From: a virus
Taxonomy: Duplodnaviria > Caudoviricetes
Strand: one strand, 5' to 3'
Virus record (IMG/VR): IMGVR_UViG_2636416124_000002
Coordinates: 18,123-82,122 of that record
DNA: 64,000 nucleotides
Shown here: piece by piece, positions 2,999 to 47,561 of the stretch
Position numbering within the stretch: the stretch's first letter is position 1
How the letters are laid out: each line of letters opens with the position of its first letter
Position numbers and translations under genes: made by a program
Notes under the pieces: generated by a model
Seen by the model: the letters and a program-made list of their open reading frames with translations, nothing else
Told to the model about the DNA's origin: nothing
Database searches by the model: none

Positions 2999-3178
2999 AT
3001 GACCCGCCGCGAACCCACCATCCACAACCCGGCCCTTACCGTCACCTGCCCGCACTGCCGGTGCGTCCCCGGCGCCCCCTGCCTCGACAAGCGCGGTAGC
3101 CGGCTCAAGGAAGGCCGGGTCCACCGTCGGCGGACCACCGAGTACAACCGGCGGAACACCGCCAAAACCACCCGATGA
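2999..3178 (+). CDS. Small zinc-finger protein
   Basis: AAGGAG RBS; VTCPHCRCVPGAPC...RVHRRR. Confidence 0.65.
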   Translation: MTRREPTIHNPALTVTCPHCRCVPGAPCLDKRGSRLKEGRVHRRRTTEYNRRNTAKTTR

Positions 3179-6525: not shown

Positions 6526-7086
6526 GACGAGACCTTCTTCCTGGACGAAGCGGGTTGAAGACCAGACGGATGGTGCCGCTGGTCACAGGCCGGGCGGACC
6601 CAAACCGCCCGGCCTTTTAGCGCCCCCGGGGTGGTGAGCCCCAGGGCCCTGCAGCGTCGGCTGGTGAGGCCGACGACGTGGGAAGAACCTAGATCAGGCC
6701 ACAGGGGGCCTACACAACATTCAGACCCCTGAAAGTGCGCCTCGACTATCAACGTTGATAGAACAACGAAGAGTCGAAACCGCAGGTCAGTACAGTCTTA
6801 ATAGACAAACGCGGCCCCCTGACCACCAGGTTTCCCGATAACGGGAAACCCCCTCCGTTGTGTAACTGGATTTCGGTATGTACCTTCACCGGCCCGCCAA
6901 ACCTGGCCGAAACGCGACCGTGGCTGCAGTCACCCCACGAACCTAGCCTCCCGTCAGAACCGGCCATCGAAAACCGGCGACGCTTCTAACTTGATCAAGA
7001 GGGGGCTGCGGTGACATATTCTCAATTTCGGGCAAATCGCAGGTCGCTGACCTGGGACATGTACCTGAGGTATATCCATGTAGCGC

Positions 7087-21740: not shown

Positions 21741-22004
21741 ATGCTCGCCGTCTCGGAACGCGTCCCCGGCTACGGACGTACCCCCGACCAGACCGTCTGG
21801 CACAAGCCCGCCGCTGGCCACCGGTGCACCGGGGAGTGCGACTTCCACCCCATCGCATGCAGCGAGGAGGAAGGGATCGTCTTCCCCGGCCCGAAGCAGG
21901 ACGTCCCGATCCGACTGGACCAGGAGAACGAGGCGTGGTGCGCCGACTGCCTCAGCCTCCACCGCCAGCAGCAGCGGACCACCACCCAGAAGCCCCCGCG
22001 ATGA
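21741..22004 (+). CDS. Hypothetical Cys-containing protein
   Basis: GAGGAG RBS; WHKP...C...WCADCL. Confidence 0.65.
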   Translation: MLAVSERVPGYGRTPDQTVWHKPAAGHRCTGECDFHPIACSEEEGIVFPGPKQDVPIRLDQENEAWCADCLSLHRQQQRTTTQKPPR

Positions 22005-22186
22005 TCCAGCACGGACAGACCGGCACCCCCGACAGCGACGTCGTCGTCACGAAGAAGGGCCACCCGCTCTACGCGCTCACCGTGTCCAGAAACCGCATGG
22101 AGCGCTACAAACTCACCGAAGCCGACGTCAGCACCACCCGCGACGGGACGCCCCGCCGCACCGGATACGTCCTGGAGGACACATGA
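22001..22186 (+). CDS. Hypothetical protein
   Basis: ATGA-coupled small ORF. Confidence 0.55.
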   Translation: MIQHGQTGTPDSDVVVTKKGHPLYALTVSRNRMERYKLTEADVSTTRDGTPRRTGYVLEDT

Positions 22187-22249
22187 GGACCTGCCCGGTG
22201 ACGCAGAAAGGCCCCGTCCGGTAAGGTCGGGGCCAGGCGGTCATCTTCA

Positions 22250-22374
22250 GGATGGGTCCGGTTCGTCACCGGAACCGCCACTGTGCGGGAGATCCCGGTT
22301 CAAGTCCGGGCCAGTCGACTCAGTCGGCTAGTAGCTCAATGGCCAGAGCGTCCGCTCCTAACGAACCGCATCCC
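22250..22374 (+). ncRNA. Circularly permuted tRNA-like RNA (YrlA/Y-RNA-like topology)
   Basis: T arm CCCGG-TTCAAGT-CCGGG (22294-22310) precedes the D arm GCTC-AATGGCCA-GAGC (22334-22349). Acceptor-like stem 22311-22319/22323-22331 is closed by a loop. GCGGG (22285-22289) pairs with TCCGC (22351-22355). The ends pair (GGATG/CATCC and GGTTCGT/ACGAACC). Confidence 0.7.
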
Positions 22375-23229
22375 GGCCAGCCTTCAGCTCCATGGGCGTC
22401 ATGGCCAGGTCGCGGTAGTACGTCATCGCGTGCCCCTGGAGCCGCTGTACCACCCGGTCCTGTTCGGGACCACTCAATCCGTGACCGGCGGGCGCCGCGT
22501 TGAACCTTCGGCGGCTGACCGCCGTCGAGCTACGGTAGTCGCGAGCGATGGCCTCCGCCCACTGGGCGCGGGTGAGGGCACGCTGGACTCGCCCGTTGAT
22601 CTCATGAGCCGACTCCTTCGTCACCGCCAACGTTGCCATGATCTCGGGCCAACCCAGCGTCGGCGGCATGTCGACCTTCGTGTACGTGAAAGGCCGCCCT
22701 GCGAGGCTCTCCCACCGTGTCACCGCTGCGGGCGACAGCCCTTTCCACCGGTCGATCAGCTTCTTGTTGACCTTTCCGGCTCCGTGCATCATCGCGTTGC
22801 GCCACGTCAAGCAGAAGCCCAGTAGCTCGTCTGCGACGGTCTCGGCTTTGCCGAAACGCAACGTCTCATGGAGTGCTGGCACCGGCCAGCCCCCGGAGCT
22901 GACTGCTTCGTGATCAAGGGCGGGAAATGCTGGCACTCAACGATCGTGCCCACACACAGTTCGATGTGCAGTGCCATGACTTGAGGGATGGCGAGAACCG
23001 CCATGTCGGCCGCCGCCGAGCCGAAGATCTTTGTCGCGTCGGCGACCGTGACGTCGAGTCGCTCCGCCTGCGGCACCGCGTTCAGTATCGTGCTCGCCCT
23101 GATCTCGGGGTCTGGAGCCTGGTCCATATCCTGCTGGATGTGATGCGCCCCTACCGACAGGGCCAGGATGCTGTTGTTCGAGCGCTTCTGCATGGCCTGC
23201 CACGTCCGAAACGCGCTGTACTGGATCAA
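22358..23229 (-). CDS. HEPN-motif (Rx4H) all-alpha protein, about 290 aa after repairing a frameshift near 22920
   Basis: ORFs 22807..23229 and 22358..22936 join as ...CQHFPPLDHEAV... with one extra C; motif WRNAMMHG. Confidence 0.6.
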
Positions 23230-23379
23230 GTCGCCCCCTGGTTATCGGTGTTGGTACAGCCTAGTGCGCGTGACTCCGCGTACCCCCACCCTCGGGCCCG
23301 TCCTGAACCATCAGGCGGGCCCGAGGCGTTGTGCACAGCAGGTCGGCGGGAACACTCCAGGGAGACCACGGAGGTGACC

Positions 23380-23547
23380 ATGCCAGGCCGACGACACACC
23401 GGCTTCAAATCCAAAGCACAGTGGAAGATGTTCTTCGCCAACCCCCGGCTCCGCCGCTACGCCCGCCAGAAAGCCCGCGCCACCAAGGGTGGAAAGATCA
23501 CCCGCTACCGGCGGCTCCCCGCCCGCAAGGGCACCCGCCGTCGCTAA
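23380..23547 (+). CDS. Small highly basic protein
   Basis: GGAGG RBS; MPGRRHTGFKSKAQWKMFFANPRLRRYA. Confidence 0.65.
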   Translation: MPGRRHTGFKSKAQWKMFFANPRLRRYARQKARATKGGKITRYRRLPARKGTRRR

Positions 23548-46688: not shown

Positions 46689-47561
46689 GGGGCGCCTCCT
46701 TGCGGAGTATGGCCAGCACGGCTGTGGCTACGTGCCCGCCCATGTCGCCGGGGAGATCCTGGTTCAGCACGGTGCGCACGGCCAGGGCGACGCGGGCGTG
46801 GACGGGGTCTCCGTCTTCGTCGAGGGCGGCGTCGATGATGTCGGCTACGGGGTCCCATGTGCGTGTGGTGGCACGGATGTAGGCGGAGGCGTCGCGTACT
46901 CGCCGGATGGTGGCCTCGGCCTGCTCGGCGCGCGCCACAGCCTGGGCACGCTCGAACTCCAGCAGGTCCGCCGTCATGGGGGTGGCTACGTCCACGTGAA
47001 CGAGCGCCGTCCGAACGGCCCGCCAGATGATCGCGTTGCGGTGGACGGTGTCGGGCGGCAGGTACTCCCCGAGGTTGTGGATGTTCTCGTAAACGGCGTC
47101 GTAGGCGGGCTGGCGCGGGTCTGGGCGAACCTGCGCGGCGTCAAGGGCGGGGCCGGAGGCTCGGCCCCTTCGCTCTTCGCGCTCGCTGTGCGGGCTTGGG
47201 CTTCGTGAACGATGCCCTCGGTGGTCCATCTGCGGTCCCGGCCGACGCGCCCGTCGTAGCTGTCGGAGACGTCGGCCACCATCTCGTGGATGTCCGACCA
47301 CAGGCGGTGTACACGGTCCTCGCTGGCCGTGTGGACGTGGCCGCACGGTTTCACGGTGAGCCGGATATCCCGAAGCAGGCGGTCTGGGCGGCCGGTGGTG
47401 ACCTGCCACGCCGCGTCGACAGCCTCCCCGCAGGTGGGGCACGGCGGGTACGGCAGGAGCAGAGTGCCGTCGCGCCCCTGCCTCGACCGGTGAGTGAGGA
47501 CGACCGCCCACGCCAGCAGGTCCGCATCGGAAAGGGGCTGCACCTCCGGAGCGTCAGGCAT
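46678..47561 (-). CDS. Hypothetical protein with a Zn ribbon (frameshift near 47130)
   Basis: CPTCGE...PCGH; second half AYDAVYENI...NAIIWRAV. Confidence 0.55.

What the first reader, a model, noticed from the sequence alone, without database searches (positions are those of the whole stretch)
22250..23229. HEPN-motif protein convergent with, and overlapping, the tRNA-mimic RNA: candidate RNA-protein toxin/antitoxin or defence pair
Seen: after adding one C near 22920, a protein of about 290 aa carries WRNAMMHG (Rx4H). Its stop codon (CTA at 22358-22360 on +) lies inside the RNA, so about 17 nt of the RNA 3' strand are antisense to the coding end. Established: Rx4H HEPN domains are RNases, and several (PrrC, RloC, some Abi systems) cut tRNA anticodon loops; type III TA systems use structured RNA antitoxins. 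Inference: a prophage-borne nuclease controlled or decoyed by a tRNA mimic that lacks a normal anticodon loop. I know of no described system with this combination. The adjacency could also be a chance moron insertion.
Basis: partly seen in the sequence, partly recalled or inferred. Interest (0 to 1): 0.8.

Follow-up and report, generated by a model that had tools for sequence, protein, structure and literature searches.

The report
HEPN nuclease gene paired with tRNA-mimic RNA
A Streptomyces prophage carries a 1.2-kb cassette that pairs a gene for an unannotated HEPN-type RNA-cutting protein (broken here by a one-base deletion) with a small tRNA-shaped RNA gene. The same tail-to-tail pair recurs next to very distant relatives of the protein, so the two almost certainly work together, probably as an RNA-controlled toxin or anti-phage system that I did not find described.

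Summary

The convergent RNA (22235-22356, +) has a promoter-like sequence of its own. It consists of a 5' three-way junction plus a circularly permuted tRNA-like domain of YrlA type. Of its 37 base pairs, 29 show compensatory changes.

The key result is co-occurrence. The RNA lies tail-to-tail, from a 22-nt overlap of the coding end to about 54 nt beyond it, in about 30 of 38 assessable loci. These include protein relatives at 19-40% identity in defence-island contexts. Chance adjacency is therefore rejected.

The mechanism is inferred, not shown: an RNase effector held in check by a tRNA-shaped pseudo-substrate RNA. I found no description of this pairing in the library searched. The closest precedents are AbiF/RCd22 and the proposed YrlA inhibition of an anticodon nuclease. 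The scan's earlier notes hold no finding of this pair on other DNA.

The parts
22133..23330 (.). The whole cassette: RNA promoter region, RNA gene, HEPN-family gene and its upstream region. It is exchanged as a unit between different prophage backbones.
   Evidence: blastn of related loci against the window. Homology blocks of L003 (22137-23331) and L040 (22133-23328) end at these borders while their flanks differ. L039 shares the left border (22132). L006 matches only 22235-23229.
22198..22227 (+). Promoter-like region of the RNA: -35-like GTGACG (22198-22203), an 18-nt spacer, and -10-like TAAGGT (22222-22227) 7 nt before the RNA start.
   Evidence: Read. A TANNNT hexamer (TAAGGT, TAGACT, TAGAGT, TACACT, TAGAAT, TATAGT...) stands 5-8 nt upstream of the RNA start in most of the 18 loci listed. 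The generic sigma-70 consensus scan did not call it, so this is an inference.
22235..22356 (+). Conserved structured core of the RNA, 122 nt. The 3' end of the transcript is unknown.
   Evidence: Covariance model R1 scores 136 bits here. On 13 diverse homologues, 95% of cells are paired and 29 of 37 pairs show compensatory changes, against 5-9 pairs with the partners slid. Rfam's closest family is YrlA at only 19 bits, E 0.73. ARAGORN finds no tRNA.
22236..22279 (+). 5' domain of the RNA: a three-way junction. P1 is 22236-22241 with 22274-22279. P1a is 22242-22245 with 22251-22254. P1b is 22258-22262 with 22268-22272 and has a 7-nt-type loop starting UUC.
   Evidence: All three helices show compensatory changes across distant members. 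The GGUUC of P1b is nearly invariant.
22285..22355 (+). Circularly permuted tRNA-like domain. Anticodon-stem-like closing helix: 22285-22289 with 22351-22355. T arm: 22294-22310 (loop TTCAAGT). Loop-closed acceptor-like stem: 22311-22319 with 22323-22331. D arm: 22334-22349 (loop AATGGCCA).
   Evidence: The order T arm, closed acceptor stem, D arm is the YrlA layout (PMC4201824). The acceptor stem varies from 0 to 9 bp among homologues, whereas the T arm, D arm and closing helix are always kept.
22358..23229 (-). Gene of the HEPN-fold family (about 290 aa when intact), frameshifted here. The N-terminal frame runs from 23229. The C-terminal frame ends with stop TAG at 22360-22358.
   Evidence: 34 intact homologues of 234-300 aa at E 1e-108 to 4e-37. 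Alignments A1 and A5. Structure and fold searches.
22890..22894 (.). Frameshift site: a C5 run on + (G5 on the coding strand) where the closest intact homologue has six.
   Evidence: DNA alignment with L039, L040, L002-L004. Protein alignment.
22784..22801 (-). Codons of the putative catalytic motif R-N-A-M-M-H (Rx4H).
   Evidence: Read. R is invariant and N and H are at least 90% conserved in 52 diverse members. RNxxxH-type motif is present in 129 of 132 representatives.

Best explanation
Shown. Window 22133-23330 is a two-gene cassette of a Streptomyces prophage. One gene encodes a ~290-aa protein of a widespread, unannotated family with a HEPN fold and a near-invariant RNxxxH motif. In this copy it is interrupted by a 1-nt homopolymer deletion. 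The other gene is convergent and has its own promoter-like sequence. It specifies a structured RNA of at least 122 nt made of a 5' three-way junction and a circularly permuted tRNA-like domain: T arm, loop-closed acceptor stem, D arm and an anticodon-stem-like closing helix, with no anticodon loop. The two genes are a conserved tail-to-tail pair across very distant relatives, in prophages and in defence islands.

Inferred. The protein is a metal-independent RNase effector or toxin of the abortive-infection kind, probably aimed at tRNA or tRNA-shaped RNA. The RNA is its cognate trans-acting regulator. Most likely it is a pseudo-substrate that occupies the tRNA-binding surface but offers no cleavable anticodon loop, so it acts as an RNA antitoxin in the type III manner. 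Loss or titration of the RNA during infection would free the nuclease. Because the RNA core ends within a few nucleotides of the stop codon, its read-through may also be antisense to the 3' end of the mRNA. In this window the effector gene is probably inactive while the RNA gene is intact.
For: HEPN fold:
- VIA-align against 48,161 PDB chains puts HEPN domains in the top 12 (model 1, pLDDT 87) and top 14 (model 2, pLDDT 95) places.
- R144-N145-x3-H149 lies at the end of helix 132-149 and is followed by a loop. Published HEPN anatomy places the Rx4-6H motif at the end of helix 3, with a polar residue after the R (PMC3710099).
- R is invariant and N and H are at least 90% conserved in 52 members at 18-60% identity to the first member. 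The motif is present in 129 of 132 representatives.
- Some members give weak hits to the PADLOC RTasHEPN and AbiA models.

Real RNA:
- 95% of cells are paired, 29 of 37 pairs have compensatory changes, 0 of 500 shuffles reach the observed values, and slid controls give 5-9 pairs.
- A -10-like box is conserved upstream.

Coupling:
- The RNA is adjacent and convergent in the window, L002-L007, L039 and L040.
- It is also adjacent at L021, L042-L045, L051, L053 and L054 and at 13 metagenome loci. It is always on the opposite strand, from a 22-nt overlap of the coding end to about 54 nt beyond it.
- The cassette moves as a unit.
- In genome G001 the gene and the RNA are on different contigs, separated exactly at the gene/RNA junction, yet both are retained. 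This is compatible with action in trans.

Defence context of distant members:
- AIPR, N6_Mtase/Eco57I and DUF5677.
- SIR2_2 and T1RH-like.
- D12 methyltransferase and a PIN/MazE pair.

Precedents:
- A prophage AbiF (HEPN-like) toxin is neutralised by the ncRNA RCd22 (PMC12373285).
- Hughes et al. proposed that the YrlA tRNA-like domain competitively inhibits an anticodon nuclease (PMC7790460).
- HepS is a single-protein prophage HEPN anticodon nuclease (PMC13043305).
Against: - No experiment or transcript data were available. Expression, RNA ends, toxicity, RNA binding and tRNA cleavage are all untested.
- About a fifth of assessable loci have the protein without a detectable RNA (L047, L048, L049/L055, L063, L071). 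One clade instead sits in an operon with 141-aa and ~1190-aa proteins. The RNA is therefore not obligatory for every family member.
- The RNA occurs without the protein in Microbacterium phages, so it may have a protein-independent role.
- The layout is unlike type III TA systems: convergent and single-copy, rather than upstream tandem repeats.
- The direction of control (inhibitor versus activator or cofactor) cannot be read from sequence.
Confidence: 0.5

Rival explanations
1. The RNA is a positive partner rather than an inhibitor. The protein and the tRNA-like RNA would form a ribonucleoprotein in which the RNA is a scaffold, specificity factor, sensor or bait. For example, it could be attacked or bound by a phage factor that acts on tRNA, and this would switch the nuclease on. 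This is analogous to Ro60 with Y RNA, or to ncRNA-dependent DRT and retron systems.
For: The co-occurrence data are the same as for the best explanation and do not tell activation from inhibition. The conserved 5' domain covaries in all three helices, which suggests more than a simple tRNA decoy. The YrlA-type domain is known from an RNP, Rsr with Y RNA (PMC4201824). Some family members weakly match the HEPN domains of RT-associated, ncRNA-dependent systems.
Against: In the window the RNA gene is intact while the protein gene is broken. RNA-only copies also exist in G001 (contig C187) and in lytic-type Microbacterium phages. This fits an antidote or decoy that has value on its own better than a cofactor that is useless alone. 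Protein-only loci exist.
Confidence: 0.25
2. The RNA acts mainly in cis, as a convergent antisense or transcription-interference regulator of the HEPN gene (type I-like). In this reading the tRNA-like shape serves only processing or stability, for example recognition by RNase P or the CCA-adding enzyme, and does not bind the protein.
For: The tail-to-tail geometry is very tight, from a 22-nt overlap to about 54 nt beyond the stop, in every locus. No terminator was detected between the RNA and the gene in the window. M. smegmatis YrlA is cut by RNase P and receives CCA (PMC4201824).
Against: In L054 a GC-rich hairpin lies between the RNA core and the stop codon, so overlap is not conserved. In G001 the RNA and the gene are unlinked. 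Antisense control needs no conserved tRNA elbow or three-way junction, and it would not explain covariation throughout 37 pairs.
Confidence: 0.1
3. The two genes have independent functions and merely travel together. The RNA would be a phage tRNA-related or anti-defence element, such as a decoy against host anticodon nucleases or a partner of RtcB-type repair. The HEPN gene would be an unrelated defence moron.
For: The RNA is present without the protein in phages Percival and Gretchen, directly after tRNA-Lys and five genes downstream of an RtcB-like ligase. Related tRNA-like RNAs lie next to DUF7873 genes in about 13 of 151 Streptomyces genomes. Some loci have the protein alone.
Against: The same orientation and spacing are conserved at 19-40% protein identity, across prophage, defence-island and housekeeping neighbourhoods, in about 30 of 38 loci. 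The cassette borders enclose exactly both genes. In 151 Streptomyces genomes the only RNA hits above 100 bits are beside the gene.
Confidence: 0.07

Closest known systems
AbiF(Cd)/RCd22 of a Clostridioides difficile prophage (Abi_2/AbiD/F HEPN-like toxin with an ncRNA antitoxin; PMC12373285)
   Same: Both are prophage-borne. In both, a HEPN-type protein is associated with a dedicated small structured RNA. In AbiF/RCd22 that RNA has been shown to neutralise the toxin by direct binding, in the type III TA manner.
   Different: The protein here has no Abi_2 (PF07751) match. The RNA is tRNA-shaped, and the Rfam scan reported no other family above noise. The RNA gene here is downstream and convergent rather than upstream in cis. 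Nothing has been tested experimentally here.
YrlA / bacterial Y RNAs with Rsr (Ro60), Rfam RF02553 (PMC4201824), and the proposal that the YrlA tRNA-like domain inhibits an anticodon nuclease (PMC7790460)
   Same: The module layout is the same: T arm, loop-closed acceptor stem, D arm, closed by a helix where the anticodon stem would be. YrlA is the best Rfam hit. A published hypothesis holds that such a domain competitively inhibits a prophage anticodon nuclease.
   Different: Scores are far below the Rfam gathering threshold (19-36 bits against 69). There is no TROVE/Rsr gene in the 82-kb record. No GNCGAAN0-1G Ro-binding motif is present in 14 RNAs. A different 5' three-way-junction domain is present. 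The conserved neighbour is a HEPN protein, not Ro60.
HepS of Salmonella prophage Gifsy-1 (PMC13043305), and the anticodon nucleases PrrC and RloC
   Different: HepS is controlled by phage tail-tip proteins and PrrC by a restriction enzyme, and neither is reported with a dedicated RNA partner. There is no detectable sequence similarity. The substrate here is unknown.
Type III toxin-antitoxin systems (ToxIN, CptIN, TenpIN)
   Same: The proposed logic is the same: a structured RNA directly neutralises an endoribonuclease, and the system is carried on mobile elements with a role in phage defence.
   Different: Type III antitoxins are tandem repeats upstream of the toxin gene in the same operon, and the toxin processes them. 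Here the RNA is a single, convergent, tRNA-like gene, and the protein has a HEPN fold rather than a ToxN-like fold.
HepT/MNT (HEPN toxin with a nucleotidyltransferase antitoxin; 5yep, 7ae2)
   Different: There is no MNT partner gene. The protein is twice as long, with inserts after helices 2 and 3 and a 70-residue C-terminal extension. The partner is an RNA.

Membership tests
HEPN superfamily | Four-helix up-down bundle core, with an insert allowed between helices 2 and 3 | tested here: met
HEPN superfamily | [quoted passage not shown] | tested here: met
   R144-N145-A-M-M-H149 ends helix 132-149 and a loop follows. Conservation is given. The criterion comes from PMC3710099.
HEPN superfamily | Sequence match to a curated HEPN family model | tested here: inconclusive
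   No Pfam, NCBIfam or PHROG hit. Single members give marginal hits to HEPN_Swt1 (E 0.059), Ribonuc_2-5A (E 0.087), PADLOC RTasHEPN (1.4e-4) and AbiA (1.7e-3). ESM Atlas gives a lead to HEPN_RiboL-PSP at 0.80-0.84 only.
HEPN superfamily | Metal-independent endoribonuclease activity | not testable with these tools
   Needs biochemistry.
YrlA / Y RNA (RF02553) | tRNA-like module in the order T arm, closed acceptor stem, D arm | tested here: met
YrlA / Y RNA (RF02553) | Score at or above Rfam's gathering threshold (69 bits) | tested here: not met
   19 bits in the window and 28.7-36.3 bits in relatives. Only model positions of about 23-85 of 114 match.
YrlA / Y RNA (RF02553) | Encoded next to an Rsr/Ro60 (TROVE) gene and carrying the Ro-binding GNCGAAN0-1G strand | tested here: not met
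   No TROVE match in the whole 82-kb record. The motif is absent from the window RNA and 13 homologues. In Streptomyces genomes, TROVE-like genes lie 65 kb or more from related RNAs.
Type III toxin-antitoxin | The antitoxin is an array of direct RNA repeats upstream of, and co-transcribed with, the toxin gene | tested here: not met
   Here there is a single RNA gene, on the opposite strand, downstream of the protein gene, with a promoter-like box of its own.
Type III toxin-antitoxin | The RNA binds and neutralises the protein toxin | not testable with these tools
AbiF / Abi_2 with an abiF-motif RNA | Protein matches Abi_2 (PF07751) and the RNA carries abiF motifs | tested here: not met
   No Abi_2 hit for the window halves or for 52 family members. 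The Rfam E-value scan of 21900-23500 lists no abiF hit.
tRNA gene | Cloverleaf with an anticodon loop and open acceptor ends | tested here: not met
   ARAGORN finds no tRNA here or at 12 of 13 homologous RNA loci scanned. Its one call, in L054, forces the 5' domain into a tRNA-Ala with a non-complementary acceptor stem.

The most novel reading that the evidence does not exclude
The cassette defines a new class of RNA-guarded immunity. A tRNA-mimic RNA holds a HEPN nuclease inactive and serves as bait for phage activities that act on tRNA, such as tRNA nucleases, tRNA-modifying or repair enzymes, or host transcription shut-off. Damage to the mimic, or its loss, would unleash the nuclease. Orphan copies of the RNA in lytic actinophages (Percival, Gretchen) would then be antitoxin mimics used as counter-defence, as with the pseudo-ToxI RNA of phage phiTE (that example is recalled from memory and was not checked here). 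This would also give the first dedicated protein partner for a YrlA-type tRNA-like domain outside Ro60.
Probability: 0.15. Interest if true: 0.9.

Novelty: new variant of a known kind. Interest (0 to 1): 0.8.

Why it matters
HEPN RNases are among the commonest effectors of bacterial immunity and toxin-antitoxin systems. How each one is kept silent is a central question.

This finding gives a whole, unannotated HEPN family (241 clusters at 50% identity, mostly Actinomycetota) a conserved RNA partner that is shaped like a tRNA without an anticodon loop.

If the RNA is the inhibitor, three things follow:
- The published but untested idea that tRNA-like Y RNA domains competitively inhibit anticodon nucleases (PMC7790460) becomes directly testable in a two-gene system.
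- A tRNA-mimic class is added to the known RNA antitoxins.
- Orphan tRNA-like RNAs in phages may be anti-defence genes.

It also supplies a new RNA family, with strong covariation, that is absent from Rfam.

Tried and rejected
Searches that gave nothing:
- Pfam, PHROGs and PADLOC on the two window ORFs.
- NCBIfam on 52 family members.
- A profile search of PDB sequences, which gave only chance hits such as hyoscyamine hydroxylase at E 0.03.
- Foldseek against PDB with both models; nothing at E <= 0.001.
- tblastn of P0001 against 50,697 phage records; no match.
- A TROVE/Rsr search of the whole virus record; none. TROVE-like genes in Streptomyces are not next to related RNAs.
- hhalign of the family against the DUF7873 neighbour of the chromosomal tRNA-like RNAs; unrelated, probability 0.1.
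- The generic promoter and terminator scan; no calls.
- The literature search found no paper describing this protein-RNA pair.

RNA models R1 and R2 found no RNA at these loci:
- L001.
- L047, L048 and L049.
- L055.
- L063, L071, L073 and L077.
By eye, the downstream regions of L047-L049 show no T arm/D arm pair.

False positives of the RNA model:
- Junctions of tandem tRNA-Asn genes, as Chen et al. warned.

Readings considered and rejected:
- An att-site tRNA remnant. The RNA has a promoter-like box, covaries, and moves with the gene.
- Programmed frameshifting. All homologues are in one frame.
- Part of the gene's 3' UTR on the minus strand. The G-U pairs and the T- and D-loop motifs fit only the + strand, and the models hit only that strand.

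Tools that could not be used:
- Alignments A5 and A8 were too diverse for the metagenome scan. A9 worked.
Full report
**What is in the window.** The record is an 82-kb IMG/VR virus record of high G+C content. The closest relatives of the genes studied here are all from Streptomyces. To the left are small plus-strand genes. Between them, on the minus strand, two overlapping ORFs (22807-23229, 140 aa; 22358-22936, 192 aa) together cover one gene.

**The protein gene and its break.** A search with the C-terminal ORF returned 34 proteins, mostly 275-300 aa (three are 234-246 aa). All that carry a name are called 'hypothetical' and come from Streptomyces. E-values run from 1e-108 to 4e-37, and none has a precomputed Pfam domain. 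In the alignment the N-terminal ORF matches residues 1-116 and the C-terminal ORF matches residues 113-290. The N-terminal frame remains homologous through ...FPPLITKQSAPG. The closest intact relative (L039, 89% protein identity) reads GCTCCGGGGGGCTGG where the window reads GCTCCGGGGGCTGG.

**The protein is a HEPN-fold protein of an unannotated family.** Pfam, PHROGs, PADLOC and NCBIfam have no model for it. A profile search of 1.84 billion cluster representatives found 241 clusters at E <= 1e-3, 161 of them at <= 1e-10, and most members are about 280 aa. ESM Atlas assigns its nearest clusters mostly to Actinomycetota.

In 52 members at 18-60% identity to the first member, R144 and W173 are invariant, and N145 and H149 are conserved in at least 90%. 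An RNxxxH-type motif is present in 129 of 132 representatives of at least 230 aa.

Two AlphaFold2 models, from a shallow and a deep alignment (pLDDT 86.9 and 94.9), are all-helical. Foldseek found nothing significant. The exhaustive VIA-align search of 48,161 PDB chains, however, gave HEPN structures in the top 12 and top 14 places:
- AF_0298, YutE, TT1696 and others

**The RNA.** On the plus strand, 22235-22356 folds into seven helices:
- A 5' three-way junction with helices P1, P1a and P1b.
- A 5-nt linker.
- A tRNA-like domain in permuted order: the 3' strand of an anticodon-stem-like helix, the T arm (loop TTCAAGT), an acceptor-like stem closed by a loop, the D arm (loop AATGGCCA), and the 5' strand of the closing helix.

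ARAGORN sees no tRNA. Rfam's best hit is YrlA, far below threshold (19 bits against 69). Relatives reach 29-36 bits. This layout is that of YrlA-type bacterial Y RNAs (PMC4201824). However, there is no Rsr/TROVE gene in the record, and the Ro-binding GNCGAAN0-1G motif is absent from all 14 RNAs examined.

On 13 diverse homologues aligned to the model, 95.4% of cells pair and 29 of 37 pairs have compensatory changes, including all helices of the 5' domain. Slid controls give 5-9 such pairs, and no shuffle reaches the observed values. That alignment was fitted to the model. The independent MAFFT alignment of seven close sequences already showed covariation in P1, the closing helix, the T arm and the acceptor stem.

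The acceptor stem varies from 0 to 9 bp among homologues. The T arm, D arm, closing helix and 5' domain are constant. The conserved core is therefore the tRNA 'elbow' plus the anticodon stem, not the acceptor end.

A TANNNT hexamer lies 5-8 nt upstream of the first paired base in most loci. In the window this is TAAGGT at 22222-22227, with a -35-like GTGACG 18 nt upstream. The structured core ends at 22355/22356, 2 nt before the stop codon (22358-22360).

**The decisive test: do the two travel together?**

Close relatives (58-89% protein identity):
- The RNA is adjacent and convergent in L002-L007 (genome contigs) and in L039 and L040 (viral contigs).
- In genome G001 the single intact gene copy (contig 469) has no RNA beside it. 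An RNA scoring 131.7 bits lies on contig 187, next to DUF6192 and DoxX genes.
- The two G001 homology blocks end at 22358 and 22361, which is exactly the gene/RNA junction.

Distant relatives:
- A 280-aa homologue at 27% identity (RNAVIHAGG) in L021 has a 46-bit RNA that lacks the acceptor stem. The RNA ends 9 nt from the stop codon. The neighbours are a D12 methyltransferase and a PIN/MazE pair.
- Metagenomic homologues at 19-36% identity have the RNA at L042 (77 bits, overlapping the last 22 nt of the gene), L043, L044, L045, L051, L053 and L054.
- A metagenome scan with a third sub-alignment returned 24 loci. Thirteen carry the RNA directly after the gene. Seven are too short downstream to judge. 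About four appear to lack it.

In all, about 30 of 38 assessable loci have the RNA. It is always on the opposite strand, from a 22-nt overlap of the coding end to about 54 nt beyond it.

Two further results point the same way. Among 151 Streptomyces genomes, the only RNA hits above 100 bits are beside the gene. blastn shows that the unit 22133-23330 is exchanged as a block between otherwise different prophage backbones. Chance adjacency is excluded.

**Where the pairing is not universal.** One protein clade (L049/L050/L055) has no RNA and is followed by co-directional genes of 141 aa and ~1190 aa. L047 and L048 also lack a detectable RNA.

Conversely, the RNA type occurs without the protein in Microbacterium phages Percival and Gretchen. 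There an unannotated tRNA-like domain (75-78 bits with my models; YrlA 36 bits) follows tRNA-Lys(ctt) directly, five genes after an RtcB-like ligase.

More distant tRNA-like RNAs (43-53 bits) lie downstream of DUF7873 genes in about 13 of 151 Streptomyces genomes.

**How it most likely works.**

Shown: a conserved pair of a HEPN-fold protein and a tRNA-mimic RNA, on mobile elements. Its distant members lie among AIPR, methyltransferase/Eco57I, DUF5677, SIR2_2, T1RH-like and PIN/MazE genes.

Inferred:
- The protein is an RNase effector. This rests on established knowledge that HEPN domains with an intact Rx4-6H motif are metal-independent RNases (PMC3710099).
- It probably recognises tRNA-shaped RNA, as PrrC, RloC and HepS do (PMC13043305).
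- The RNA probably binds it as a pseudo-substrate that lacks an anticodon loop and so keeps it silent. This is the logic shown for the prophage AbiF/RCd22 pair (PMC12373285) and proposed for YrlA against the Salmonella anticodon nuclease (PMC7790460).

Several observations fit an antidote better than a cofactor, though none is proof:
- The intact RNA gene beside a broken protein gene in this window.
- The unlinked but retained pair in G001.
- The orphan RNAs in phages.

Activation or scaffolding by the RNA, or purely antisense control, remain open.

**Comparison and novelty.** The protein meets the structural and motif criteria of the HEPN superfamily but belongs to no curated family. The RNA shares the architecture of YrlA but fails its score threshold, lacks its Ro-binding motif and has a different partner. 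The system fails the defining layout of type III TA systems and of AbiF/abiF. I found no paper describing a HEPN protein with a dedicated tRNA-like RNA, and the scan's earlier notes hold no such pair. I rate it a new variant of a known kind, namely an RNA-controlled HEPN toxin or abortive-infection module. It comprises a new protein family and a new RNA family.

**Limits.** There are no expression or biochemical data.

Noticed in passing
L041 (Microbacterium phage Percival MH271308.1) 2999-3072; the same in phage Gretchen OK040779.1 at about 46770-46838: An unannotated YrlA-type permuted tRNA-like domain follows tRNA-Lys(ctt) with no gap. It lies five genes downstream of an RtcB-like RNA ligase and before an HNH endonuclease gene. 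The phage has no homologue of the HEPN family. It could be a tRNA-mimic decoy or a partner in RNA repair.
   Followed up: partly
L019 1375-1612 and similar loci L013, L014, L020, L022-L028, L030, L032, L034-L037 (Streptomyces chromosomes): A different tRNA-like RNA (43-53 bits with R1; a weak YrlA hit just upstream in L019) lies about 200 nt downstream of, and co-directional with, a DUF7873 (PF25283) gene in about 13 of 151 Streptomyces genomes. An aminotransferase gene lies beyond it in L019. TROVE-like genes are 65 kb or more away. DUF7873 is unrelated to the HEPN family by hhalign.
   Followed up: partly
G001: L001/L052 (contig 469) and L010 (contig 187): In one Streptomyces genome the cassette is split exactly at the gene/RNA junction. 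The intact gene is on one contig. The RNA, with its promoter region, is on another, beside DUF6192 and DoxX-like genes.
   Followed up: partly
L054 6930-7019 (-): ARAGORN calls a 90-nt 'tRNA-Ala(cgc)' here by reading the P1b hairpin of the RNA's 5' domain as an anticodon arm. The 7-nt P1b loop (UUCRNNA) looks like both a T loop and an anticodon loop, so the 5' domain may itself derive from tRNA. A GC-rich hairpin (about 6853-6872) between the RNA and the gene looks like a shared terminator.
   Followed up: no
L015-L017, L029, L031, L033, L038: Junctions of tandem tRNA-Asn(GTT) genes score 35-44 bits with the RNA model. The T arm of one tRNA plus the D arm of the next mimics the permuted domain. 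This shows how such RNAs could arise from tRNA dimers, and it is a source of false positives.
   Followed up: yes
window 23381-23547 (+): A 55-aa, extremely basic ORF (MPGRRHTGFKSK...RKGTRRR) lies just outside the cassette, between it and the 563-aa ORF called the portal, and on the opposite strand to both. It has no Pfam match.
   Followed up: no
L021 2472-3083 and L053 7774-8700: A D12-class N6-adenine DNA methyltransferase gene lies within 1 kb of the HEPN/RNA pair in two unrelated distant loci. This may be coincidence or a recurrent third component.
   Followed up: no
L049/L050/L055: A clade of the HEPN family without the RNA is followed by co-directional genes of 141 aa and ~1190 aa (faint SACS and weak NOV_C hits nearby). 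This suggests that the same effector is used in a different, protein-only system.
   Followed up: no
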